A stretch of 64,000 nucleotides of DNA, taken from assembly GCA_000004985.1 (NCBI GenBank), contig GG738867.1; one strand, given 5' to 3'. Shown here piece after piece: positions 7,401-64,000 of the stretch (positions within the stretch are counted from its first letter, which is position 1; every line of letters starts with the position of its first letter). A program made the position numbers and the translations under genes. The stretch is from Naegleria gruberi. Its lineage: Eukaryota. Below the pieces are notes generated by a model. It worked only from the letters and a program-made list of their open reading frames with translations, had not been told where the DNA came from and did not search any database.

Positions 7401-8563
7401 ATGAATTCCAATGCCGAAATTCTTGAGCTCGTGAACCAATTGTGCCATATTTACAGGAAGGGATTTTTCCAATTCTTTTTGTTTTTCTAAAATTTTTTGA
7501 ATTTCAGACCTAGCAGTACTTTGAATGATTCTCTTCTGAGTTGTGGAAAGACTGTTATTAGTAAGAGCTGATGAATTAGAAGCTACAGCTCTCGATTGTC
7601 CAATAATTGATGATGTTTCCTTTTTCATCTTTTCAGTCTTTTGAATCTTAGTCTTGTTGATGAGTGTAGATTTTTCCAATCTTGATTGCTCTGTTGGTGC
7701 TGTTGTTTTGGTTACTGGTTGAGTTCTTCTAACAATCATTGAGGAATTTTCATTTGGGAGAATGGCAGAAATATTACAAGTGGATAAGTTAAAGGTTGTT
7801 TCTTCAGGTTTTTGAGTGGTAGTTGGTTGTACTCTTGTTGTGTTAAGTCTGGATGTAGTAGTGAGTGGTTTCCTAGTTGTTTGTGCTTTAGTTGCTTCCA
7901 TAGCTTCTCCCATCAAGTAAACAGTAAATCTGAATCTTGTGTTCCACAAAAATACAAGTTGGCAAGAGATTTTACCTGGCTGTAATGGTTGCCAAGAAAT
8001 AGGTATTTGGTAATCTCCACATAGAGCTGGTATAGCATGTGAAACTTCACGAATAGTGAACCCAAACTGAACTGGAAGTTTTTCTACAGCAATTTCTTGT
8101 TGCTTTTGGATTGGATTTGATACAAAGAGTGTCATAACTTTTGATGTACCAAGTTTAACCCTACCAAAGTCAACATATACCTTACTAGCAAATTGTTTGA
8201 GAACCAGAGTTGGCCCTGTTGGAACACCAACTGGTTTTTTATAATTGTTTCATCCATTGTAGCAATAGATGAAAGACCAGAAAAGGTGAGGTCTTGTATT
8301 ATATTTTCCTTGTCATCAACCATTAGAGAAGTATTACTTCCAATTTGTGAAGTTTGAAGAAGAGAGGCATTAGATCGGTCGACACGGTCTACCACAAATC
8401 TGCTGAATTGTGCCTTGTTAAATTGTGGAGAGTTCATGATGGCAGCTGATTTGTTTGTTGTTGTTGATAGAATAGGAAGAGTTTGTGAAGTGTTGAGTGC
8501 ATTGTTGTTGATATTTTGTTGGTTGTTATTATTCACCAGGCTACCTAGCAGTGATCGATTCAT
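4419..8563 (-). CDS. ASPM/Asp (abnormal spindle)-like protein: ASH-like N-terminus, putative CH domain, more than 20 IQ motifs, conserved C-terminal region; frame break at an A6 run near 8235-8240
   Basis: The 1238-aa ORF is full of IQ motifs (IQxxxRGxxxR variants such as 'LLQTLIRGFRDRK', 'ISCQASIRGFLERK', 'ATKIQKVFRGFMVRRC').
A CH-like segment 'AMLLQWIQAVLERY' is present.
The same frame stays coding-like upstream of the listed start ('KPVGVPTGPTLVLKQFASKVYVDFGRVKLGTSKV-MTLFVSNPIQ').
It joins the N/Q-rich 143-aa ORF (8132..8563) through a 1-nt frame change in a homopolymer. Confidence 0.6.
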
Positions 8564-20793: not shown

Positions 20794-20874
20794 CGCAGAC
20801 TGCAGGATTCGAACCTACGAAGGTTTCCCCAACAGATTTCAAGTCTGTCGCCTTAACCACTCGGCCAAGTCTGC
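20794..20874 (-). tRNA. tRNA-Ser (anticodon UGA), type II with long variable arm
   Basis: Reverse complement reads GCAGACTTGGCCGAGTGGTTAAGGCGACAGACTTGAAATCTGTTGGGGAAACCTTCGTAGGTTCGAATCCTGCAGTCTGCG.
Acceptor GCAGACT/AGTCTGC.
Anticodon stem ACAGA/TCTGT with loop CTTGAAA.
T-loop TTCGAAT. Confidence 0.85.
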
Positions 20875-22075
20875 TACGATTATTACAAAATCAATAGTTT
20901 CTAGCTCGGTATCTCAAATTGCTCTGTTCCACCTAGGTTCAACAAGTTTACTATATAATCTATATAATCGTGTGCACCTTTCATTTTGCTACCAATCCAA
21001 AGATGGATGCAGGCAATCAAAGCAGACTATTCCACCATTCTTTGAAAACAGCAAAATTCAAAATCTAAAGAATCTTCCTTAATTAATAAATACAATAAAT
21101 TATTAAAACAAGATGTTGTATAGCTTCTACACTTTGAAAGAAGAAGATCCAATAAGTAAGAATTGTTATATTGTTCTTAAAGAAGGCGTATTAACATTGC
21201 TACTGGTTCAACCTTGCTAAAACCACAATATATTAATATTTTCCAAGGCACTTCCGAGTTTACTAATACATCACTCATATCCAGTTATTTCCAAACAGTT
21301 CTTGTCCAGGGATTTTACGTTGTTATTGATCGTCACTGTGAAACACGTAATTGCTGATTGCGATCTGCCCTTTTCTACCCGTTTTCTTGCTTGCGAAAGA
21401 GTTTGAGAAAACAATTTTTGAACTCTGAAAGCACTTCAGAGCAATACTTAATAGAAATATTCAAAATACGATAACTAATTGTAATGAGAGTTTCAGAAAT
21501 TGAAAATCCGAAACAATACAAAGATAAAGAAGAATAACTCACTTTCTGAATCAAATCAAGTGCCAAGCTTGATATCCAAAATAATCCATTTTGTTAAGTT
21601 TGACCTTCTTGGCAAAGATCAATAAACCAGCTACTACCTCCAAGCATGATTACAAGAACTCTACACTAATAATAGCTTATAATCATCTACAGTTGTTCTT
21701 CCATCTCAGATACTTGGTTCTAAAACAACATGACATGAAATTCTCATCAACTACAGTCTGTCATCTTTGTAATCAATAGCAACAGTTCATTTTATCTTCC
21801 ACGTTTAGAACCACCATGCCATTTAACGAAAATACGAAACAGTTTTTTATTCCTTTCAGTAATGGCCTTATTTTGATTGTTATCCAAGCTTGATAGGTTG
21901 TTGCCAAAAACGCTTCGGTTATTAACATCCAAAATCTCACAGAACCTCCCAAATGGCAAAAGTTACCTCTACATGGATGTTTTCAACTTCACATTTTACC
22001 GTCAATCAAAGATATTTCACACTCGCTCATCCACTACGAGGTCACAAAAATTTATCAGAAAAAACAAAAACAAAT

Positions 22076-23764
22076 ATGAGACAAACAGTTGTGTTTAGTG
22101 TTGTGGTATTGATTGCCACTCTCTGTCTGACGGTTGGCTTTGTTCATTCAAAGGCAATTGACAGTTTCTCCCTGTTCAAACTCTTCACACCAGTCTATGA
22201 GAATTGTTACTCTCACGATGGTGTCAATGTAAATAAGAAACACGTTACTTGGGGACGTACAGGTGAATCACTTCCACGTTTAACTAAGGCTGCCTATACT
22301 GATGGTGTTAAAGATCCACCACGTTTGACTTTGAGTGCTAGAGTTATTTCTAATGCTTTCAGTAAGCAAACTACCTGTGATGAATCTAATGATTTCAATG
22401 ATAGTTCAATGATTTATGCGTATGGTCAATTTGTGGATCATGATATTTCCAATGAAGGAGCTGGTTTAAAGTTTACTGAAACTTTAAATATTGAAGTACC
22501 TCCTGGTGATGTTTGGACAACTGCTCTTCCATTCACCAGAGCTGTCTTTGCCTCTGACAAGCCAACTTATGTTAATGAGCCAGTCAATCAAGTGAACTTT
22601 GTTACTGGTTATATGGATTGTAGTCAAATCTATGGTTCTGATGAGATTCGTGCTGATGCTCTTCGTGAAAAAGTTGGTGGTTTCTTAAAGGCTGATGTCC
22701 AATATGGAAAGGAATTTTTGCCAAAGAGTTTTGTTGATCCAAAGAGTGGATTATTCTTCATTGGAACGGTCAACAATTCTGTAATAGCTGGAGACAATAG
22801 AGCAACTGAAGCCCTTCCAATCTCAATCATGCAAACTTTAATGTTGAGAGAGCATAACAGATTGGCAAAATTAGTAGCTTCCAGATTTGGAGTATCTCAA
22901 CAACAACTTTCAAACTCAAGAGCTGATGAATGGATTTATCAAACTGCTCGTACCATTAACTGTGCTCAAATCCAACACATTACATACAATGAATATTTGC
23001 CAAGAATTTTGGGTAAATTCGCTCCAAAACCAAAAGACTTGTGTTATGATGAAGAAGTCAAGACAACTGTTACTACAGAATTTGCCACTGCTGCTTTTAG
23101 ATTTGGCCACAGTACTGTTGGGTGTGATATGAAGAGATTCACTGGTAATGGTAGTGAACTAGCTCCAATTGACTTTGGTAATGCTTTCAATGCTTATCCA
23201 GTTTTAACTCAATCTGCTGAAGAATTGGATAATTTGTTGAGAGGTCTCATCAAGCATCACGCTCAAAACTTGGATGAAAAGGTTGTTGATGGTTTACGTC
23301 AAGTTATCAGAGGTCGTTTGGATCTTGTTGCCAGAAACATTCAAAGAGGTAGAGATGTTGGTCTTCCAGATTACAATACCATTAGAACTACCCTCGGTTT
23401 CCCAGCTCTCAACGTTACTCAAATCACATCTCGTGCTGATGTTCAAGCCAAGTTAATCTCATTCTGGGGTGTCAATTTGGTTGGTTTGGAACCATGGTTG
23501 GGAATTCTCCTCGAACAAAAGGTTGAAAACTCTCAATTGGGTGAATTAGGTACTCACTTACTCAAGACTCAATTTGAAAACTTTGTAAAGGGAGATAACT
23601 GTTTCTACTCTCACAATCCTCAAACATGGGCTCGTTCCTTGTTCAAGAAGGAAATTGAAAAGGTTACTCTTGCTGATATCATTGATGCTAATACTGGTGT
23701 TAAGAAGGGTGAAAAGTCTATGGGTACTTCTCCATTCGTTGCCAAGTATGGTCCATTGGTTTAA
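22076..23764 (+). CDS. secreted animal-type heme peroxidase (peroxinectin/peroxidasin family)
   Basis: ATG at 22076 followed by signal peptide 'MRQTVVFSVVVLIATLCLTVGFVHS'.
Distal His motif 'YGQFVDHDI'.
'RGRDVGLPDYNTIR' (RDHGLPGYN-like).
Proximal His 'AFRFGHSTV'. Confidence 0.8.
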   Translation: MRQTVVFSVVVLIATLCLTVGFVHSKAIDSFSLFKLFTPVYENCYSHDGVNVNKKHVTWGRTGESLPRLTKAAYTDGVKDPPRLTLSARVISNAFSKQTTCDESNDFNDSSMIYAYGQFVDHDISNEGAGLKFTETLNIEVPPGDVWTTALPFTRAVFASDKPTYVNEPVNQVNFVTGYMDCSQIYGSDEIRADALREKVGGFLKADVQYGKEFLPKSFVDPKSGLFFIGTVNNSVIAGDNRATEALPISIMQTLMLREHNRLAKLVASRFGVSQQQLSNSRADEWIYQTARTINCAQIQHITYNEYLPRILGKFAPKPKDLCYDEEVKTTVTTEFATAAFRFGHSTVGCDMKRFTGNGSELAPIDFGNAFNAYPVLTQSAEELDNLLRGLIKHHAQNLDEKVVDGLRQVIRGRLDLVARNIQRGRDVGLPDYNTIRTTLGFPALNVTQITSRADVQAKLISFWGVNLVGLEPWLGILLEQKVENSQLGELGTHLLKTQFENFVKGDNCFYSHNPQTWARSLFKKEIEKVTLADIIDANTGVKKGEKSMGTSPFVAKYGPLV

Positions 23765-24239
23765 ATTGTATTATAAATATAAACAACATTGTATTAAAAT
23801 TATAATTGTTCTTCATTTCATATATGAATCCAAATCAACAAGATTTCTTTTGTGCTAAGACCGATAAGCTCTATCTTGCCTCCAATAGCTAAGAACACTG
23901 GATGTACACCTCAACTTGGAGTTGTTGTTTGAGATTATTTTCTATTATCGTTGTTAATAACTCTTTAAGGTTGAGCCATACTCAAGGGGTTCAAGGTAGT
24001 CAGCACCTCGAAAGTGGTAATTACGCTGTTAGTCGTAACAATTGGGGAAACCACTGCACATCTCTCAGAGAAGAATAGAGTAGCACCTCTGCATCATTTT
24101 AAAAGAACCAAATTTAAGAGAGAGGAATTTATCACCTATATTTATTGGGCTTAGACCGTTCATTAATGTCATAAAAATTGTGGTACATTTTATATGAAAA
24201 TAGTATTCATTCTACTTGGGATTGAAACATAGAAATAAA

Positions 24240-24358
24240 AGACTACAACACCACAGGTTCCCAAGTTGTCTCCAACCTCAGTACTGATGTGGCTCGACGA
24301 TGCTTAACTTCTCAAATCGGACGGGATGAGGTGCATTCATCGTGATATGGCCGTAGCC
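24240..24358 (-). rRNA. 5S rRNA gene (copy 1)
   Basis: Reverse complement 'GGCTACGGCCATATCACGATGAATGCACCTCATCCCGTCCGATTTGAGAAGTTAAGCATCGTCGAGCCACATCAGTACTGAGGTTGGAGACAACTTGGGAACCTGTGGTGTTGTAGTCT' (119 nt).
Conserved 5S blocks (GGCCATA…, GAAGTTAAGC, AGTACT, CTTGGGAA).
Helix I pairs GGCUACGGC with GUUGUAGUC.
Followed by a T-run pol III terminator. Confidence 0.85.
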
Positions 24359-24398
24359 ACTCATCTTATCAAAATCTTAATATTGAAATAGAAAACAA
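24359..24398 (-). promoter_or_regulatory. conserved 5S 5'-flank with TATA-like element (ATATTAAG about -26)
   Basis: About 38 nt immediately upstream of both 5S copies are nearly identical (…TATTTCAATATTAAGATTTTGA(T/A)AAGATGA(G/A)TG).
The 3' flanks are unrelated. Confidence 0.4.
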
Positions 24399-24474
24399 TG
24401 AAAACTTATTAAGCATAAACTATCCGCTAACCAACTACAATTGGTTTAAATTGCAATGATTGAATAATAATTTA

Positions 24475-55981: not shown

Positions 55982-57115
55982 ATGTCTGTCTATGGAGACT
56001 TTCAAGCTCTCGTTGTTGACAACGGTTCTGGTATATGCAAAGCTGGTTTTGCTGGCGATGATGCTCCAAGAGCTGTCTTTCCTTCAATTGTAGGTAGACT
56101 AAAGCGACAGTCAATCATGATTGGAATGGGTGAAAAGGATGCCTATGTTGGTGATGAAGCTCAATCCAAGAGAGGCATCTTGACCTTAAGGTATCCAATT
56201 GAACACGGTATTGTTACTAATTGGGATGATATGGAAAAGATTTGGCATCACACTTTCTACAATGAATTGAGTGTTGCTCCTGAGGAACATCCAGTCTTGT
56301 TGACTGAAGCTCCTTTGAATACAAAGGCAAATAGAGAAAAGATGACTCAAATCATGTTTGAAACCTTCTCAGTTCCAGCCATGTATATTTCCATTCAAGC
56401 TGTCTTGTCTTTGTATGCTTCTGGTAGAACTACTGGTATAGTTTTAGAATCTGGTGATGGTGTTTCACACACTGTTCCAATTTTTGAAGGTTATTCGTTG
56501 CCACACACCATTTTGAGATTGGATTTGGCTGGTCGTGACTTGACTGATTGCTTGATGAAGATTTTGATGGAAAGAGGTTACTCATTCAACACTACTGCTG
56601 AAAGAGAAATTGTAAGAGATATTAAGGAAAAGCTCTGTTACGTTGCTTTGGATTTCAAAGAAGAAATGAAAGTTGCTGCTGAATCGTCTTCTGTTGAAAA
56701 GTTATATGAATTGCCAGATGGCACTGTTATAACAATTGGTAACGAACGATTCAGATGTACAGAAGTTTTATTCCAACCTAATTTCGTTGGTATGGAAGAT
56801 GCTGGTGTTCATGAAATAGCCTTCAACTCAATTGGTAAATGCGACATTGACATTAGAAAAGAATTGTTTGGAAATGTTGTCTTGTCTGGAGGTACTACCC
56901 TGTTCGAAGGTATTGCTGAAAGGATGACCAAGGAATTGACTGCTTTGGCACCAGCCTCAATGAAGATAAAGGTTGTAGCCCCACCTGAAAGAAAGTACTC
57001 AGTCTGGATTGGAGGCAGTGTCCTCGCGAGCCTTGCAACCTTTCAGCAGATGTGGATATCGAAAGAAGAATATGAGGAGGTTGGTCCTGGTTTTGTTCAT
57101 AGAAAGTGCTTCTAA
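55982..57115 (+). CDS. actin (divergent paralog)
   Basis: 377-aa intronless ORF colinear with actin over its whole length (…[29 protein letters not shown]…, …[20 protein letters not shown]).
It has an atypical N-terminus 'MSVYGDFQ' and scattered substitutions. Confidence 0.9.
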
Positions 57116-57205
57116 ATTGGCTCTGTAAATCAGTACTTCCAATGAGTTTAAAACAAGTTGAATTTTCTGGTGGTGTATTTGAATAATGTTAAGATAATTG
57201 AAAAA

Positions 57206-57324
57206 AGACTACAGCACCACAGGTTCCCAAGTTGTCTCCAACCTCAGTACTGATGTGGCTCGACGATGCTTAACTTCTCAAATCGGACGGGATGAGGTGT
57301 ATTCATCGTGATATGGCCGTAGCC
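57206..57324 (-). rRNA. 5S rRNA gene (copy 2)
   Basis: Near-identical to copy 1 (2 substitutions inside the gene).
The same conserved 5' flank lies at 57325-57362.
An A6/T6 terminator run lies immediately 3'. Confidence 0.85.
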
Positions 57325-57775
57325 ATTCATCTTTTCAAAATCTTAATATTGAAATATTGAGAGAACATCAAGAGTCATTATCCCAAAATTCTATTGAAAA
57401 TTTGAAACTTGTTGACTTTAATGATTTTGACTTTTTTAAATTTTCTATTATTATTTTGTAAATTCTCAATTTCAGTAAGGAGGAGATGAAACAATTTAGA
57501 ATATATAACATTTAAATGAAAGCCATGAACAAACTACTGTTGAATATTAAGGTAAACTACCAAATTCAATTCATGTTTGAAAATGAAGTTGATTTCGCCA
57601 ACAATTGGAACGGAATTGCGGAGTAGATGAGGACAATTTATAAATAATACCATCCACTCTGGCATCCAACTCATTTTCCAAATGCCACACAAAACAACAA
57701 GTGGTAACCTTCTTAAAAATCATAAAACGTTGCAAATTCATGTTTCTTGTAATCAACTTGAAAGTAGTAAAAAAA

Positions 57776-60700
57776 ATGAGCAGCAACGAAGAAGCACCAA
57801 CTTTAATCAAAAATTCATCTCATAATCAAGATGATGAATTGGAGGATCTTCTCGATGCTCGGAATGAAAATGTTGTGGATGTGTTTAAGGAGGAGATTGA
57901 TGGGTCGTCTTCAGAGCCATTAGAGAATGGAGCTTCTTGGATATCACTCGTGTTCTTTTCATTTGCTGGAAGTTTGATGAGTCTTGGGTTTAGAAAGGCT
58001 GGTGAGAATTATTTGATAAAATTGATCAAACAAATGTTGAATCGAATTGGGATATTTGGTCAGTTTCAGATTAGAAAGGAGGAGGGAATGAATCATGGAG
58101 ATATTCCCAAGTTGGATGAAAGGTTCAAGGCAAACAGGCATTGTGAATTATTCGAAAGACAGTACAGAGAATTATATCATGAGAGAGGTTATTATAGTGA
58201 GGATGGAGGATTTAGGAAGAATTTTGGAACTTTATTGTTGCGAGTGATTGAGAGAGCTTATAGAAATAGAGGATTATATTCAATATCCTTGTGGAAGATT
58301 GCTGAAATGGCATGTTTGTACATGTCACCACTCATTCTCTATATTTTACTCGAGTCAATCAAGGTGGATGATTATGTGAAAAGTGCAATACCAGCAGCAA
58401 CTCAATTTTTAATACCAATTTCTTCCTACGGATTGTTGAATAATGACACTGTCATTACCTCCAATTACACAATGAACAACGAAACAAATTGGTTTCAAGA
58501 GAACTTGCCACTCTCAAATATTTTCTTCCAGTTGACTTTGGTAATTTTATTATTTACTTTCAACTCAATGGCTTCATTGTGCATCCATCAGTATTACTAT
58601 GCTACTTCAAAAATTTGGATTCCACTCATTGGAGCACTTCAAGGTTCAATCTTGCAAAAGCTGAATAGAATCAAGAGTGAGGAAAGAAGAAAATTCAAAA
58701 GTGGTGAATTGAACAATTTATTTGCCACAGATGCCAAAAGATTAGCCATGGATGGTATTGATATTCACGAGGCTTGGCTATTGCCATTGACATTAATTGT
58801 TGGTGTTGTATTGGTTTTCCTATTTTTTGGTTATAGCTCACTTGTTGGTATTCTTGCAATGGTAGTTTGTGGACCTATTCTTCCATTGTTGGGTAAATAT
58901 CAAACTAGTTTTGCTGCCAAAGCTGCCGAATTCAGAGATGAAAGAGTCAAGCACATTAGTGAGGTATTGAATGGTATTAGAATTGTCAAGTTTTATGTTT
59001 TTGAAGACAAGATGAAAGAAAAGGTGAATCAAGCAAGAGGGAAGGAATATTCACTCCTCAAAAAGTATATTACTGTATTGAGTGGATATTGCTTTACTTC
59101 TTCTTTGATTGCTGTTGTTGGAAGTGGAGCCACTTTTGTTACTTTCTATTATGTAGGTGGAAATTTGACCTTACCTAAAATGTTCACTGGTCTAGTGTTG
59201 TTTAGCACCTTTAGATTACCATTATTGTATTTGCCTTGGGTCTTTTCAAACTTGGTTTTGGCCTATGTGAGTGCTAAACGTATTGGTAGATTCTTGTTTT
59301 GTGAAGATACTTTGAATTTACCTCATGATCATGAAAATAAGGCGAATTTGTGGGATTTTGATTCAGAACATACTGAATTGTCATCAATTATGGATAATAA
59401 TTCAGCTATTGAATGTAAAGATGCATCTATTGGATGGTCAGAAGAGGATGCTCCTATTCTCACTGATTTAAATCTGAAAATTGAGAAAGGAAAGCTCTAT
59501 TGTGTAATTGGTAATACTGGTAGTGGAAAATCAACTCTGATCTCCTCAATTTATGGTGAATCTATTGTAAAGAGTGGAAAAGTTCAAGTTAACCCATCAT
59601 GTAATATTTCACTCAGTGATGAAACTCCATGGTTGATCAATGCATCTGTCATGGAAAATATAATTTTTGATAAGAATTTAACTTTTGACAGGGAAAGATA
59701 CAATAGAGTATTGGATGTGTGTCAATTAAGAGACGACCTCAGTCAATTCCCAAATCATGATCAAACCGAAATTGGTTTTTCTGGAATTAACCTTTCAGGA
59801 GGTCAAAAACATAGAATTAGTTTAGCCAGAGCATGTTATAGTAATTCTGAAATTATCTTAATGGATTCCACTCTCAACTCAATTGATGCCAAATTGTGTA
59901 GAAAGATTTTTAATGAATGTATTAGTGGATATTTGAAGGACAGAACTAGAATTCTCGTAACGCACTCGCTGCAGTTGTTGGAAATGGCTGATGAAGTCAT
60001 TGTTTTAGAGAATGGAAAATTGATTGCCAAAGGCCCTCTGAAGGATATTAAGGATTCCTATGACTTTTCCAAACTAATCTCTGAACAGGAAGAAGAACTT
60101 GAAACTGTAGAGAAAGAAGCAATTGAGAAGGAAAAGAAACAAGATGAAAAGAAGGGCCAACTTGTAGCTGTGGAAGATAAGAGCCACGGTGAAGTTAGTT
60201 GGGCTGTCTTTATGGCCTATATCCGTCAGTGTGGAATTTTCTTGACACTTCTCAGTCTCTTTATGAATCTATTATCTATTGGAGCAAAAACAGCAAGTCA
60301 AGTCTGGATATCTGTTATGAATAGTGACCTGCTTGGATTACCTCTGGGTACCTATGTTTGGGTCTTCTTCTCTTTTGGATTAATGGATTGTTTCATCATC
60401 TTCTTTAAGGAGTTAACTTTAGGTTTTGCTACTCTAAGAGGTTCGACCAATTTGCATAGAGGTATGCTGAATAACATTCTAAGAGCTCCAATACAATTCT
60501 TTGATCAGAATCCAGTCGGAAGAGTATTGAATAGATTTACTCAAGATTTAGAAACTTTGGATAATATGGTAATGCCTGCCTCTGATTTTATTGGAAATGT
60601 GTTGAATATTTTCTTTACCCTAACTCTGATATCTATAATCAATCCAATGTTTTTAATTGTGGTTATTCCAATCGGTTTAGCATTTTACTTTATTCAAGAA

Positions 60701-62036
60701 TATTATAGAACTACCTCAAGAGAACTTAGAAGATTGGAATCAATCTCAAAGAGTCCAGTCATGTCACATTTCAATTCATGCCTCGAAGGTGTCAATACTG
60801 TTAAGGCATCGCTTGTACATTCGAATATTTATGCAGATAGTTTTTCAAAGATTGACTTTGCCAACAAACATACCTTTAACAGATTTATGATAAACAGATG
60901 GTTGGGAGTAAGAATTCATCTCAGTAAGTATCTATTCACATTAATAATGTTTCTCATATATTTCACAGTTTCTCAATCAGTTTTGTTCTTCACAGCAATT
61001 TTTGCCATCATTGCCAAAAATACACAAGATATTAGTCCAGCTTTCCTTGCCTTGACTATTTCAAACTCTCTCCAGTTGAGTGATTGTTTCCAAGGTCTGG
61101 TTCGTTCTTTTGTTGAAGTTGAAAGTAATATGACTTGTGTGGAGAGAATTGTTTATTATGCCCAGAGTATCTCACAAGAAGCTGCCTATGACAAAGAAGG
61201 AGATCCAACCACAACCGAATGGCCAACTAAGGGACATATTCAATTAGATAAATTCTCAGTAAGATACAGAGATGATTTAGATCCAGTTTTGAAGAATCTT
61301 GATTTGGATATCAAAGCAGGAACCAAAGTTGGTGTTGTAGGAAGGTAAGTTGTTTAATATTTCTTAACATTTCTAATAATCATAATAGAACTGGAAGTGG
61401 AAAGAGTACTTTATTGATTTCACTGTTCAGATTCCTCGAAGCTAACGAAGGTAAAATCTCCATTGATGGTCAGATATTTCGAGTATTGGTTTGAGAGCTT
61501 TACGTAAAGCTTTATTAATCATTCCCCAACAACCTGTTCTATTCTCTGGATCTATTCGATACAATTTGGATCCTTTTGATGAATTTGAGGATTATGAAAT
61601 TTGGAATGCCCTCGAACGAGTTCACATGAAAGAGAAGATTCAACCACTCCAGCTCTCATTCACCGTTACTGAGAATGGTAGCAATTTTTCAATTGGTGAA
61701 AGACAATTGCTTTCCTTGAGTAGGTGCATTTTGAGGAAGGCAAAGATTATCATCTTTGATGAATCGACTGCATTTGTGGACCATAATAGTGATGCATTGG
61801 TTCAGAAGGTTATCAGAGAGGAATTTAAAGATAGTACCATCATAACTGTTGCTCACAGATTGGACACCATCATTGATTCCGATAGTATTGTCTTTATGAA
61901 GGAGGGTGAGATTATTGAGACTGGAAGTCCTAAGGATTTACTCTTGGATGAAAGATCGAATTTCTCCTCTCTTGTGAGAGAAACTGGTAAACAGTACTCC
62001 GATCATTTGAAGAAGCAAGCTTTTAAACTTCCTTAA
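57776..62036 (+). CDS. ABCC/MRP-type full-length ABC transporter (TMD1-NBD1-TMD2-NBD2); 2 exons (57776-61344, 61389-62036) with an apparent 1-nt frame break near 61473
   Basis: NBD1 Walker A '[10 protein letters not shown]', signature '[14 protein letters not shown]', Walker B 'IILMDSTL'.
A 44-nt intron GTAAGT…ATAATAG splits NBD2 Walker A 'VGVVGR|TGSGKSTLL'.
NBD2 signature '[14 protein letters not shown]' and Walker B 'IIIFDEST'.
'…ISIDGQ' and '(D)[33 protein letters not shown]' lie in different frames. Confidence 0.8.
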
Positions 62037-62160
62037 TAATTTTTTATTAAAATACAATTTGAAGATTTAACGAAACTTTCTTTAATGGCTCACACTTTAA
62101 AATCAATACAAACCTACATGTAAGGGAGAAGTTTTCTTTTGAAGGCTGATAAAAGGCTAT

Positions 62161-64000
62161 TTATTTATATGGATTATCGCCATAATTTGAATCGACAATT
62201 ACGACACCAATTACTTTGTGCTTGGTATTGTAGGCAAAAAGATACCAATAATTATCTACCAAAACTGAATAGTACAAAACTTGAGTAATCTTTTCCTTAT
62301 ACATTTCTCTCTTGACTGCAATATTCTGCATTGAAAAAACAAAGTTAGTCAACTGGTGGGCGTGATGTGAAATTTGCTCCTCAATAAATCTGAGCATACT
62401 CTTTTCAGATTTCTTGCTTGCCTTGATTTTCTCGTACATTTGTAACATTGAGTCATCCAAGTTGCATTCATTGAAAATGAACAAGAGCAGGGAAATAAAG
62501 TGGGCACTGTCCAATGATGGAGGAGTATTCATCAATACTGTATTATTGTCTAAAATATCCTTGTGTTTTCTATCCTTCTCGTTAAAGATAAAATAGGTAA
62601 TGTCTTCATTCTTGAAGTGATGTTTGAATTCTGCCAAGCATCTCCATGAAAGTTTGCACTCTCTTGTTTGCATAATATTTTGCAATTTGTGGAATGGATT
62701 GAAAGCCACAGTTTCAACTGTTTTAATCCTTGTAAAAATGTCCATCCATAACTTTTCATTATCAATAACATTGATACCGTAGAAGTTTTTAGAAACTTGG
62801 CACCAGGTAGCAATTTCTTTCACTTCCAAAAATTCGAATATCTTTCTCCACATGTCATGAGTAACTGAATCAATGTTTTGAGGTTTGATTTCTTTAGCTC
62901 CAACAAATGTCAAATAGTCATCAATTTCCTCCTTAATCATACCACTATATAAAATACGAGACAATGTCAGAGGTGAAATACCATCTTGATTTACGCAATT
63001 CACATCGACCAAGCATTCCTCTATGAGATATTGAATTACTGCAATGTCAGGAACTCTGATAGCATCAAATAGAACAGTCTCATTCTTATCGAAGGTTCTA
63101 ACTCTGGCAACAGAACCAACATCATGATGAATGGAAAAGTCTTCAAAGAGGCATATTGGATTTTCAGAGACAGCATCCCTAAGTAACACTTCAGTTACAA
63201 TAAATCCGAAATGTTTTGCAAAATCCAATTGTGGATTGTATTCTTTGAAAAATGGATTTTTGCCTCCCATCATTTTACTAATGAGAATAGCACGTCTATC
63301 ATAGTTGGTAATCTTGTCATCCTCATAGGCATTTTGCTTTTTCAAATTCTCAATAGAGAAGGGATGTTGATCCATTGGTTTTAAAAGCAATGCAAGTTTT
63401 GTTGTATCACTTTTCTTATAACAAGATCTTATGAGTAAACAGAAAAGAACCATATGATAGTAAGGGTAGTAAGCTAATGTTGGGAAAATGCATAGAATCC
63501 AGTCTACAAAGAATTGATCATCCAATTTTGGATCATCGCAGGTTTCAAAGAAATATTTAGTCATCGCATGAAGGCATGATATTAACATAATAGTTGAACA
63601 TTCATCCAACATGATATCGTAATCGTGAAGGGAATCAGATGTTACATTGAAAGAAAAGTCCTTTCCAAGTTGTTTACCAAGTTTTTCTGCTACATCATCA
63701 AACATGAATTCAACTGGATCATAGTAAGTAACACTTTGAAGTCTTTCTACAATAGAGTTAAGATCACAGGAAGTGTCACTTAGAATAAATCCAGAAAGTG
63801 ACAGATTGACAGTTTTTTCCGAAATGCTAACCTCAATATTCACACCAAAAATATTGTTTGAGCAGAGATATCGTTGTACTGCTTTTTGGATTTCTCTAAG
63901 GATTGGATCCTTCTTGACTTTAGGTGTCTTGACTTTCTTTGTTGCCTCTGTATTTGAAGGACTTGGAGTTGAATCAACAACAGGTGTAGATGATTTCTTT
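62161..64000 (-). CDS. F-box-like protein, 5' partial because the frame is open to the window end
   Basis: 'DSVTHDMWRKIFEFLEVKEIATWCQVSKNFYGI' F-box-like.
The track start at 63843 is a GTG.
The same frame continues open to nt 64000 (…KKSSTPVVDSTPSPSNTEATKKVKTPKVKKDPILREIQKAVQRY…). Confidence 0.5.
   Translation of the reverse strand, partial: KKSSTPVVDSTPSPSNTEATKKVKTPKVKKDPILREIQKAVQRYLCSNNIFGVNIEVSISEKTVNLSLSGFILSDTSCDLNSIVERLQSVTYYDPVEFMFDDVAEKLGKQLGKDFSFNVTSDSLHDYDIMLDECSTIMLISCLHAMTKYFFETCDDPKLDDQFFVDWILCIFPTLAYYPYYHMVLFCLLIRSCYKKSDTTKLALLLKPMDQHPFSIENLKKQNAYEDDKITNYDRRAILISKMMGGKNPFFKEYNPQLDFAKHFGFIVTEVLLRDAVSENPICLFEDFSIHHDVGSVARVRTFDKNETVLFDAIRVPDIAVIQYLIEECLVDVNCVNQDGISPLTLSRILYSGMIKEEIDDYLTFVGAKEIKPQNIDSVTHDMWRKIFEFLEVKEIATWCQVSKNFYGINVIDNEKLWMDIFTRIKTVETVAFNPFHKLQNIMQTRECKLSWRCLAEFKHHFKNEDITYFIFNEKDRKHKDILDNNTVLMNTPPSLDSAHFISLLLFIFNECNLDDSMLQMYEKIKASKKSEKSMLRFIEEQISHHAHQLTNFVFSMQNIAVKREMYKEKITQVLYYSVLVDNYWYLFAYNTKHKVIGVVIVDSNYGDNPYK

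What the first reader, a model, noticed from the sequence alone, without database searches (positions are those of the whole stretch)
24240..24400. Dispersed 5S rRNA genes carrying a conserved TATA-like upstream element, each sitting just 3' of a pol II gene
Two 119-nt 5S copies (24240-24358 and 57206-57324, both minus strand) differ by only 2 nt. About 38 nt of 5' flank is also conserved; it includes ATATTAAG centred near -26. The 3' flanks are unrelated apart from the T-run terminator. Selective conservation of the 5' flank fits an external (TATA-type) pol III promoter element, as known for dispersed 5S genes in some fungi and protists, rather than recent segmental duplication. Copy 1 lies 117 bp downstream of the DUF4116 gene. 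Copy 2 lies 90 bp downstream of actin.
Basis: seen in the sequence. Interest (0 to 1): 0.55.

Follow-up and report, generated by a model that had tools for sequence, protein, structure and literature searches.

The report
Scattered Naegleria 5S genes with promoter

Summary
Rfam finds two full-length 5S rRNA genes at exactly 24240-24358 and 57206-57324 (minus strand). They differ at 2 of 119 positions. They share a sharply bounded upstream block, -32 to -1, that is 30/32 identical. Similarity is at chance level beyond -32 and past the T-run.

The window is Naegleria gruberi nuclear DNA. Feng et al. 2012 (PMC3369914) already listed 279 putative N. gruberi 5S genes, unlinked to rDNA, with an upstream TATA box. 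Both window copies appear to be in their table.

Seven further Naegleria copies refine the reading. Three of four N. lovaniensis copies share a different species-specific block (25-30/32); the fourth carries it with a 6-nt insertion. Across five lineages only seven upstream positions are invariant: T-28, A-26, A-25, T-14, T-5, A-2, T-1. Shuffling predicts 0.6.

An external TATA-like box plus start-site motif is therefore well supported. The near-perfect 32-nt identity more likely reflects homogenisation of a promoter-gene-terminator cassette than selection on every base. A second N. gruberi-like haplotype has this patch replaced at the orthologous copy.

The "just 3' of a pol II gene" pattern does not hold in other loci. 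Known biology; low interest.

The parts
24240..24358 (-). 5S rRNA gene, copy 1 (119 nt)
   Evidence: Rfam RF00001 at 102.8 bits, model positions 1-120. G at pos 25 and U at pos 111 (a G-U pair in helix I) distinguish it from copy 2.
24359..24390 (-). Upstream block of copy 1, -1..-32 (TATTTCAATATTAAGATTTTGATAAGATGAGT)
   Evidence: 30/32 identical to the block of copy 2. Identity drops to background beyond -32. The 22-nt core is found only at the two 5S genes.
24377..24389 (-). A/T-rich TATA-like element of copy 1, -31..-19 (ATTTCAATATTAA). It holds the cross-lineage invariant T-28, A-26, A-25.
   Evidence: These columns are invariant in an ungapped register over five independent Naegleria lineages. 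Observed 7 invariant columns against 0.63 expected, with 0 of 20,000 shuffles reaching 7.
24359..24363 (-). Start-site motif of copy 1, -5..-1 (TGAGT; TGAAT in most copies)
   Evidence: T-5 and T-1 are invariant in all nine copies, and A-2 in the five-lineage set. TGAAT is present in Ng copy 2, all four N. lovaniensis copies, N. fowleri and L028.
24237..24240 (-). T4 run at the 3' end of copy 1 (putative pol III terminator; the first T is the last base of the gene)
   Evidence: Read directly from the sequence. A run of at least 4 T follows every Naegleria copy.
57206..57324 (-). 5S rRNA gene, copy 2 (119 nt)
   Evidence: Rfam RF00001 at 106 bits, model positions 1-120.
57325..57356 (-). Upstream block of copy 2, -1..-32 (TATTTCAATATTAAGATTTTGAAAAGATGAAT)
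   Evidence: The orthologous copy in haplotype L028 has a different sequence from -6 to -48.
57343..57355 (-). A/T-rich TATA-like element of copy 2, -31..-19
   Evidence: Same evidence as for copy 1.
57325..57329 (-). Start-site motif of copy 2, -5..-1 (TGAAT)
57201..57206 (-). T6 run at the 3' end of copy 2 (putative pol III terminator; the first T is the last base of the gene)
   Evidence: Read directly from the sequence.

Best explanation
Both loci are intact, independently transcribed nuclear 5S rRNA genes of Naegleria gruberi. They belong to a family of a few hundred copies scattered over the chromosomes. In this genus the large rRNA genes are extrachromosomal (my own knowledge).

Each gene is a compact cassette of about 155 bp with three parts:
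- An upstream promoter-proximal block, -32..-1.
- The 119-nt gene.
- A run of at least 4 T.

Within the block, two elements are the functionally constrained parts. One is an A/T-rich TATA-like element centred around -28/-24. The other is a TGAAT motif ending at -1.

Inferred mechanism: TBP within TFIIIB binds the A/T-rich element. This fixes RNA polymerase III initiation at G+1, probably together with gene-internal control sequences. Termination occurs at the T-run.

The remaining identity of the block (30/32 between the two window copies) is best explained by concerted evolution. The whole cassette is duplicated and homogenised among dispersed copies, by gene conversion or birth-and-death turnover. 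Each species therefore carries its own version of the block.

Shown here: gene identity and integrity, the sharp cassette borders, species-specific blocks, positionally invariant upstream bases across lineages, and copy gain/loss at orthologous sites.

Inferred, not shown: transcription by pol III, TBP/TFIIIB binding, the start site, and gene conversion as the homogenising process.
For: Gene identity and integrity:
- Both copies score 102.8 and 106 bits over the full Rfam model.
- N. gruberi-type and N. lovaniensis/fowleri-type genes differ by compensatory pairs 68-107 (C-G/U-A) and 69-106 (A-U/G-C). Over an 11-sequence alignment, 15 of 39 pairs show double changes.
- The organism is identified by actin and DUF4116 proteins 100% identical to N. 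gruberi proteins on one 424-kb contig.

Cassette borders:
- The block is 30/32 identical. Flanks beyond -32 and past the T-run are at chance level (P=0.75 and 0.16).
- No target-site duplications were found.

Other species show the same architecture:
- Three of the four N. lovaniensis copies, in two loci, share GAAnGATTAAAACTGTTATTTnGTATTCATGAAT at 25-30/32. The fourth, L027, carries the block with a 6-nt insertion (11-18/32 ungapped). Everything further out is unrelated.

Functional core:
- Across five independent lineages, 7 of 32 upstream columns are invariant in a fixed register: T-28, A-26, A-25, T-14, T-5, A-2, T-1.
- Shuffling predicts 0.63, and 0 of 20,000 shuffles reach 7.
- There are no invariant columns in -64..-33, -96..-65 or the 3' control windows.
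- The A/T core sits at the canonical -30/-24 position of pol III TATA boxes (PMC7279448).

Homogenisation rather than selection on every base:
- Block identity between species is 11-20/32, while genes are 110-118/119.
- Haplotype L028 is 97.8% identical over 5.8 kb. Yet -48..-6 of the orthologous copy is replaced and the 5' part of the gene carries 3 substitutions.
- An unrelated protist with dispersed 5S genes shows what promoter-only constraint looks like: only an A/T patch at about -30..-22 and a pyrimidine-rich -8..-1.

Turnover:
- L027 has a 5S that is absent from the N. fowleri orthologous spacer.
- L026 and L020 carry copies in opposite orientation.
- L029 has no 5S next to the orthologous ABC gene.

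Prior report: Feng et al. [quoted passage not shown] TFIIIB and TFIIIC subunits were present.
Against: - Only two copies from N. gruberi itself could be examined, plus one from a second haplotype. The rest of the genome was not retrievable.
- There are no expression, 5'-end or factor-binding data.
- Only one independent N. fowleri copy was seen, so its block may be atypical.
- A/T-rich octamers are common in 66% A+T DNA, so 'TATA-like' by itself is weak evidence. The case rests on positional invariance in a small sample.
- N. lovaniensis copy L027 has a 6-nt insertion that moves its conserved GATTAA box upstream by 6 nt, yet its gene is intact.
- In N. lovaniensis the sub-block GATTAAAACTGTT is conserved beyond a minimal TATA. 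This could indicate a larger species-specific factor site.
- The replaced patch in L028 could be ordinary hypervariable spacer rather than a conversion tract. A second such patch lies further upstream with no 5S relation.
Confidence: 0.68

Rival explanations
1. The whole 32-35-nt block is a composite, species-specific promoter. It would combine the TATA-like box with a further factor-binding site, analogous to a proximal sequence element. Selection would maintain it at nearly every position. Under this reading 5S transcription in Naegleria is largely driven from outside the gene, possibly without TFIIIA.
For: - The block is kept at 25-30/32 among dispersed copies in two species, although everything around it is unalignable.
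- In N. lovaniensis the stretch GATTAAAACTGTT is the best-conserved part and is longer than a TATA box.
- Feng et al. 2012 found no TFIIIA homologue in N. gruberi by BLAST/PSI-BLAST.
Against: - Between species the block is only about 50% identical although the genes are nearly identical. N. lovaniensis versus N. fowleri is 117-118/119 in the gene and 11-17/32 in the block.
- The L028 haplotype keeps the gene with a replaced block.
- L027 tolerates a 6-nt insertion inside the block.
- A failure to find TFIIIA by BLAST is weak evidence, because TFIIIA diverges fast. Feng et al. also report an internal control region and TFIIIC subunits.
Confidence: 0.18
2. The block has no function. It is simply the part of an ancestral duplicated segment that keeps being dragged along by gene conversion, or by recent duplication of the 5S gene.
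For: - Within-genome identity far exceeds between-species identity.
- A close haplotype lacks the block at the orthologous copy.
- Only two N. gruberi copies were seen.
Against: - Seven positions are invariant across five lineages against 0.63 expected. No control window shows any.
- The 5' border lies at about the same distance (-32 to -35) in N. gruberi and N. lovaniensis, and the 3' border lies exactly at the terminator. Random duplication end-points would not do this.
- The L028 copy that lost the block also has two broken helix pairs and an Rfam score 8 bits lower. This fits a copy that is decaying.
Confidence: 0.08
3. The cassette is a small mobile or retroposed unit, such as a 5S-derived SINE-like element or a retrotransposon-mobilised copy. 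Its fixed ends would explain the sharp borders and the scattered distribution.
For: - Copies are gained or lost, or inverted, at orthologous sites between sister species.
- The borders are sharp and reproducible.
- The single N. fowleri copy is followed by an A-rich stretch.
Against: - There are no target-site duplications above chance at any of nine copies.
- Eight of nine copies have no A-tail.
- Retroposition of 5S RNA would not carry an untranscribed upstream block.
- The L027 copy lies within a ~950-bp indel that also holds a tRNA-Met gene. This is not a precise cassette insertion.
Confidence: 0.04

Closest known systems
Naegleria gruberi 5S rRNA genes as described by Feng et al. 2012 (PLoS One 7:e36878; PMC3369914)
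   Same: Same organism and very probably the same two genes. Table S1 lists scaffold_23 152238-152355 and 185205-185321. Their end-to-end spacing of 32,966 bp equals that of the window copies. The paper reports 279 putative copies, not linked to rDNA, with an upstream TATA box, a putative internal control region and T-run terminators.
   Different: - That paper shows one gene only and searched for a TATAAA-type core.
- It does not describe the 32-nt conserved block, its sharp borders, its species-specific nature or the cross-species invariant positions.
- Its Table 1 scores the genes as 'tandem', whereas its own coordinates and this window show dispersal.
Dispersed 5S rRNA genes with a required upstream TATA box in fungi (Neurospora crassa; Schizosaccharomyces pombe pol III genes). 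Recalled from my own knowledge of the literature; only the S. pombe and plant tRNA TATA at -30/-24 is cited from PMC7279448.
   Same: The 5S genes are scattered singly through the genome and each carries its own A/T-rich box about 25-30 bp upstream of the start. Flanks are otherwise unrelated. Transcription is presumed to be by pol III with an internal control region plus TFIIIB contact upstream.
   Different: Function of the box was shown experimentally in those fungi; nothing is tested in Naegleria. As far as I recall, the fungal copies do not share a near-identical 32-nt block. Conservation there is limited to the box.
Arabidopsis thaliana 5S rDNA upstream promoter elements (TATA-like at about -28, plus proximal elements). 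From my own knowledge, not checked here.
   Same: Combination of a TATA-like box at about -28 with conserved bases next to the start site, in addition to the internal promoter.
   Different: The Arabidopsis genes are in tandem arrays. The proximal elements differ in sequence.
Trichomonas vaginalis 5S rRNA genes (TATA box plus internal control region; cited within PMC3369914)
   Same: A protist 5S gene with both an external TATA box and an internal control region.
   Different: The Trichomonas genes are reported as tandemly repeated, and a TFIIIA homologue was found there but not in N. gruberi, according to the same paper.
Yarrowia lipolytica scattered 5S genes, half of them tRNA-5S dicistronic fusions (PMC2566860)
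   Same: About 100 5S genes dispersed over the genome and unlinked to rDNA. Proliferation of pol III gene units occurs by an unknown mechanism.
   Different: There is no tRNA fused upstream of the Naegleria copies. The one nearby tRNA (L027, 233 bp upstream) has its own T-run. Naegleria copies carry their own upstream block instead.

Membership tests
5S ribosomal RNA (Rfam RF00001) | Covariance-model score above the curated gathering threshold over the full model | tested here: met
   102.8 and 106 bits against a gathering score of 38, model positions 1-120, not truncated.
5S ribosomal RNA (Rfam RF00001) | Three-domain secondary structure maintained by compensatory substitutions among relatives | tested here: met
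   15 of 39 predicted pairs show double compensatory changes. Pairs 68-107 and 69-106 switch between N. gruberi-type and N. lovaniensis/fowleri-type genes.
5S ribosomal RNA (Rfam RF00001) | Expressed and incorporated in the large ribosomal subunit | not testable with these tools
   No RNA data were available.
Dispersed (non-tandem, non-rDNA-linked) 5S gene organisation | Single copies separated by unrelated protein-coding DNA, with no 18S/28S nearby | tested here: met
   The copies are 33 kb apart with many ORFs between them. The only other Rfam hits are tRNAs and U4. Flanks are unrelated. Table S1 of PMC3369914 places copies on more than 100 scaffolds.
Pol III 5S gene with an upstream TATA-type element (type 1 promoter plus external element) | A/T-rich box at about -30/-24 conserved in position among copies and species | tested here: met
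   T-28, A-26 and A-25 are invariant in eight of nine copies (all but L027) and in all five independent lineages. Seven invariant columns against 0.63 expected.
Pol III 5S gene with an upstream TATA-type element (type 1 promoter plus external element) | Internal control region (box A, intermediate element, box C) acting as promoter | tested here: inconclusive
   The gene matches the 5S consensus throughout, and Feng et al. annotate an internal control region. Sequence conservation there is confounded by RNA-structure constraint.
Pol III 5S gene with an upstream TATA-type element (type 1 promoter plus external element) | Run of at least 4 T immediately after the gene (pol III terminator) | tested here: met
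   T4 and T6 in the window. At least T4 in all other Naegleria copies.
Pol III 5S gene with an upstream TATA-type element (type 1 promoter plus external element) | The upstream box binds TBP/TFIIIB and is required for, or stimulates, transcription | not testable with these tools
   Needs in vitro transcription, ChIP or mutagenesis.
Type 3 (fully external, U6-like) pol III promoter | Proximal sequence element around -50/-60 in addition to the TATA box | tested here: not met
   No conservation beyond -32 within N. gruberi (P=0.75). No invariant column in -64..-33 across lineages.
Dicistronic tRNA-5S genes (Yarrowia type) | tRNA gene immediately 5' of the 5S gene without an intervening terminator | tested here: not met
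   The nearest tRNA to copy 1 is 3.4 kb away and copy 2 has none near it. In L027 the tRNA-Met is 233 bp upstream and is followed by its own T-runs.
5S-derived SINE or retroposed 5S copy | Target-site duplications, an A-rich or other tail, and no upstream promoter copied | tested here: not met
   No flanking direct repeats above chance at nine copies. Conserved sequence stops at the T-run, and an untranscribed upstream block is part of the unit.

The most novel reading that the evidence does not exclude
In Naegleria the 5S genes might be driven mainly by a short external promoter, consisting of the TATA-like box at -31/-19 plus a TGAAT initiator, and might work without a classical TFIIIA. The roughly 155-bp promoter-gene-terminator cassette would spread and be homogenised among hundreds of chromosomal sites. 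Each species would then evolve its own promoter version by molecular drive, together with the factors that read it. The replaced -48..+25 patch between two N. gruberi haplotypes would be a conversion tract caught in the act.
Probability: 0.15. Interest if true: 0.5.

Novelty: already known. Interest (0 to 1): 0.2.

Why it matters
The finding adds little on its own. Dispersed 5S genes with upstream TATA-type elements are a known arrangement in fungi, plants and protists, and the N. gruberi case was published in 2012.

The modest added value has three parts:
- The conserved unit is a sharply bounded cassette, -32 to the T-run.
- The block is species-specific, and only a handful of upstream positions are shared across Naegleria species. 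These define the likely functional core.
- Copies turn over at orthologous sites.

If the external element proved sufficient for transcription in an organism where no TFIIIA has been found, Naegleria would be a useful model for TFIIIA-independent 5S expression. It would also be useful for studying concerted evolution of dispersed, rather than tandem, gene families. The block could serve as a compact pol III promoter for Naegleria genetic tools.

Tried and rejected
1. Retrieving more N. gruberi 5S loci. Exact-protein look-ups for window actin, DUF4116, peroxidase and the 367-aa ORF all returned nothing. So did look-ups for the N. gruberi database proteins P0056 and P0123. P0071 returned only a 1.2-kb transcript-like contig. 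The source genome is not retrievable.

2. Scans of bacterial/archaeal genome contigs and viral contigs with a Naegleria-specific 5S pattern gave 0 hits.

3. The metagenome scan gave one Naegleria copy (L005). The other 13 hits were 5S genes of other protists, used only as a comparator.

4. The DUF4116 homologue search aimed to find the orthologue of copy 1 in the second haplotype. Only N. gruberi proteins came back.

5. The N. lovaniensis ABC-transporter locus L030 (24.6 kb) holds no 5S.

6. Identity is 2/8 in -33..-40 and gapped alignment of -200..-33 is at chance.

7. Target-site duplications or a mobile-element origin: none found above chance.

8. A shared upstream motif with other small-RNA genes. 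The three tRNAs in the window have A/T-rich stretches somewhere between -35 and -10, but not in a fixed register, and U4 shows no similar block. This is inconclusive and was not pursued.

9. A tRNA-5S dicistronic arrangement was rejected.

10. '5S sits 3' of pol II genes' as a rule was rejected. Copy 2 is convergent with actin. L026a/b and L027 lie in divergent 5'-5' spacers.

Full report
OBSERVATION

Rfam's 5S model matches the window at exactly the stated coordinates. The hits are 24240-24358(-) at 102.8 bits and 57206-57324(-) at 106 bits, both full length, against a gathering score of 38. The two 119-nt genes differ at position 25 (G/A) and position 111 (T/C).

Read on the minus strand, the 32 nt before each gene are 30/32 identical: TATTTCAATATTAAGATTTTGA[T/A]AAGATGA[G/A]T. 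The next eight positions match at only 2/8. The conserved flank is therefore 32 nt rather than about 38.

A gapped local alignment of -200..-33 scores no better than shuffles (P=0.75). The same is true of the 3' flanks past the terminator (P=0.16). The block itself is far above every shuffle. Its 22-nt core occurs nowhere else in the 64 kb, even with three mismatches allowed; 0.04 matches are expected.

ATATTAAG lies at -25..-18, so its centre is about -21.5. The wider A/T-rich element ATTTCAATATTAA covers -31..-19. The genes end in T4 (copy 1) and T6 (copy 2).

ORGANISM AND CONTEXT

The actin ORF (55982-57115, +) is 100% identical to Naegleria gruberi NAEGRDRAFT_60612. The DUF4116 ORF is 100% identical to another N. 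gruberi protein. Both database proteins lie on a contig of 424,055 bp. The window is 34% G+C, densely packed with long ORFs, and also carries three tRNA genes and a U4 snRNA.

Copy 1 lies in a 710-bp spacer between two convergent genes: a haem peroxidase (+) and the DUF4116 gene (-). It sits 116 bp after the DUF4116 stop, on the same strand.

Copy 2 lies between actin (+) and an ABC transporter (+). Its 3' end is 90 bp from the actin stop, so it is convergent with actin. Its promoter side faces the ABC gene.

Being close to a pol II gene is therefore unavoidable in this genome, and the two geometries differ. In other Naegleria loci, 5S genes sit in divergent 5'-5' spacers (L026a/b, L027). The "just 3' of a pol II gene" pattern is not a rule.

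PRIOR KNOWLEDGE

Feng et al. 2012 (PMC3369914) searched the N. gruberi genome and reported the following:
- 279 putative 5S genes.
- No linkage to rDNA.
- An upstream TATA box, a putative internal control region and T-run terminators.
- TFIIIB and TFIIIC subunits present, but no detectable TFIIIA.

Their Table S1 lists scaffold_23 152238-152355 and 185205-185321. The end-to-end spacing of 32,966 bp is identical to that of the two window copies, so these are very probably the same genes.

Their Table 1 scores the genes as tandem. Their own coordinates, however, are spread over more than 100 scaffolds, mostly tens of kb apart. This agrees with the dispersal seen here. The core of the finding is thus already published. 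What that paper does not give is a multi-copy or cross-species view of the flank.

MORE COPIES

The N. gruberi genome itself could not be retrieved. Three routes yielded further copies:
- A metagenome scan with a 5S-internal pattern gave one environmental Naegleria copy, L005, with a gene 98% identical. It also gave nine dispersed copies with usable upstream flank from an unrelated protist.
- Look-ups of actin proteins gave about 173 kb of N. fowleri DNA and 63 kb of N. lovaniensis DNA. These held one independent N. fowleri copy (present in two segmental duplicates) and four N. lovaniensis copies.
- A homologue of the ABC transporter led to L028. This ENA metagenome contig is 97.8% identical to window 56510-62294. 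It is a second N. gruberi-like haplotype or strain and carries the orthologue of copy 2.

WHAT THE COPIES SHOW

(a) The architecture recurs. Three of the four N. lovaniensis copies share their own block, GAAnGATTAAAACTGTTATTTnGTATTCATGAAT, at 25-30/32. The fourth (L027) carries it with a 6-nt insertion. Sequence is unrelated further upstream and after the T-run.

(b) The block is species-specific. Between species it is 11-20/32 identical, against a background of about 9/32 in control windows. Over the same comparisons the genes are 110-118/119 identical.

(c) A few positions are fixed in register. Seven upstream positions are invariant across five independent lineages (N. gruberi, L028, L005, N. 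lovaniensis, N. fowleri): T-28, A-26, A-25, T-14, T-5, A-2 and T-1. Shuffling predicts 0.63, and none of 20,000 shuffles reaches 7. None of the control windows (-64..-33, -96..-65, two 3' windows) has a single invariant column. L028 was obtained after the first six of these positions had been noted, and it keeps all of them.

(d) The A/T core sits where pol III TATA boxes are found in S. pombe and plants, at -30/-24 (PMC7279448).

(e) In the unrelated protist, dispersed 5S genes share only an A/T-rich patch at about -30..-22 and a pyrimidine-rich -8..-1. This shows what promoter-only constraint looks like. It is far from 30/32 identity.

THE SECOND HAPLOTYPE

In L028 the spacer around the orthologue of copy 2 is nearly identical to the window. 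The stretch from -48 to -6, however, is a different sequence. The first 25 nt of the gene also carry three substitutions. These substitutions break helix pairs 21-57 and 25-52 and cost 8 bits of Rfam score.

So a contiguous patch spanning the promoter block and the gene's 5' end differs between two otherwise about 98%-identical haplotypes. The simplest reading is a replacement event. Either the window copy was converted to the canonical cassette, or the L028 copy decayed or was converted. The patch is not gradual point divergence.

One caveat applies. A second hypervariable patch lies further upstream with no relation to the 5S gene, so ordinary spacer instability cannot be excluded.

TURNOVER

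- N. lovaniensis L027 has a 5S gene, with a tRNA-Met 233 bp upstream, inside about 950 bp that is absent from the orthologous N. fowleri spacer.
- L026 and L020 carry a 5S in the same orthologous spacer but in opposite orientation.
- The related contig L029, with 80% nucleotide identity in the ABC gene, has neither actin nor a 5S next to the ABC gene.
- No flanking direct repeats above chance were found at any of nine copies. Conserved sequence stops at the terminator. A classical retroposed or SINE-like origin is therefore unsupported.

INTERPRETATION

The two loci are intact nuclear 5S genes. Their intactness is supported by compensatory substitutions between Naegleria lineages.

Each gene is a cassette of about 155 bp. 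The evidence supports an external A/T-rich TATA-type element at about -31..-19 and a TGAAT start-site motif as the constrained promoter parts. The inferred mechanism is that TBP/TFIIIB binds the box and positions pol III at G+1. Internal control sequences probably contribute, and termination occurs at the T-run. None of this was tested experimentally.

The near-perfect identity of the entire 32 nt within a genome is better attributed to concerted evolution of the cassette than to selection on every base. The reasons are that the block diverges quickly between species, tolerates a 6-nt insertion (L027), and can be replaced in a close haplotype.

A rival reading cannot be excluded with so few copies. 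Under it, the whole block is a species-specific composite promoter, possibly compensating for a missing TFIIIA. I give this about 0.18. A purely neutral hitch-hiker gets about 0.08 and a mobile cassette about 0.04. Both are disfavoured by the positional invariants and by the absence of insertion signatures.

VERDICT

Its central inference, an external TATA-type pol III element rather than a segmental duplication, is supported in essence.

Three points do not stand:
- The strength of the identity was over-attributed to promoter selection.
- The pol II-gene adjacency is incidental.
- The arrangement is already published for this species and is well known in other eukaryotes.

Interest is low (0.2). 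The novelty rating is "already known", with small new details on cassette borders, the species-specific block and turnover.

Noticed in passing
window 55982-57324; L020 8504-11128; L023 8531-11128; L026 5360-11128; L027 7987-11128: 5S genes lie close to actin genes in three Naegleria species. The distances are 90 bp 3' of actin in N. gruberi, about 1.4 kb 5' of actin in N. fowleri, and 1.6-4.6 kb 5' of actin in two N. lovaniensis loci. At about 279 copies per 41 Mb, a 5S within 2 kb of a given gene would be expected only about 3% of the time. Segmental duplication of actin loci and sampling bias (all loci were fetched via actin) were not controlled.
   Followed up: partly
L028 723-890 versus window 57206-57372: A second N. 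gruberi-like haplotype or strain (ENA metagenome ERZ929261, 97.8% identical over 5.8 kb) has the -48..-6 patch upstream of the orthologous 5S replaced. It also has three substitutions at gene positions 21-25 that break two helix pairs. This may be a gene-conversion tract or a decaying copy.
   Followed up: partly
L026 8280-8398(-) versus L020 8504-8622(+): N. lovaniensis and N. fowleri carry a 5S gene in the same orthologous spacer, next to a conserved ~100-aa gene upstream of actin, but in opposite orientation. The surrounding spacer is unalignable.
   Followed up: partly
L027 7796-9025: A ~950-bp segment is present in N. lovaniensis but absent from the orthologous N. fowleri spacer (L019/L021). 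It carries both a tRNA-Met(CAT) gene (8339-8410, -) and a 5S gene (7987-8105, -) 233 bp apart on the same strand, forming a small pol III gene cluster.
   Followed up: partly
L026 5360-6036: Two N. lovaniensis 5S genes lie tail-to-tail, 440 bp apart, in a divergent spacer. A third lies 2.2 kb away. Table S1 of PMC3369914 likewise shows several N. gruberi pairs 1.5-3 kb apart. The copies are dispersed but locally clustered.
   Followed up: no
window 21298-21439 (+): A U4 spliceosomal snRNA gene scores 48.6 bits, just above the gathering score of 46. It lies about 2.8 kb from 5S copy 1 and 424 bp from tRNA-Ser (20794-20874, -). Its upstream region shows no similarity to the 5S block.
   Followed up: partly
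window 21953-23764 (+): An intronless ORF gives a strong animal haem peroxidase match (PF03098, E=3.7e-111) in an amoeboflagellate genome. It is convergent with 5S copy 1.
   Followed up: no
L016-L023 (N. fowleri GCA_008403515.1): At least eight loci in one N. fowleri assembly encode the identical 375-aa actin. They sit in large, near-identical segmental duplications (L020 versus L023 is 99.4% over 8.2 kb) with recombined neighbours (HSP70, NRPS-like, PARP, ARPC4).
   Followed up: no
L001-L004, L006-L010, L012, L013 (VFQM/VFQO metagenome contigs): An unidentified protist has a 5S gene about 80% identical to Naegleria's. It also has dispersed 5S genes with unrelated flanks, sharing only an A/T-rich patch at about -30..-22 and a pyrimidine-rich -8..-1. 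Its copies differ by compensatory changes in helix II.
   Followed up: partly
PMC3369914, Table 1 versus Table S1: The published table scores N. gruberi 5S genes as tandemly arranged. The paper's own coordinate list shows them scattered over more than 100 scaffolds, which is an internal inconsistency in the literature.
   Followed up: yes
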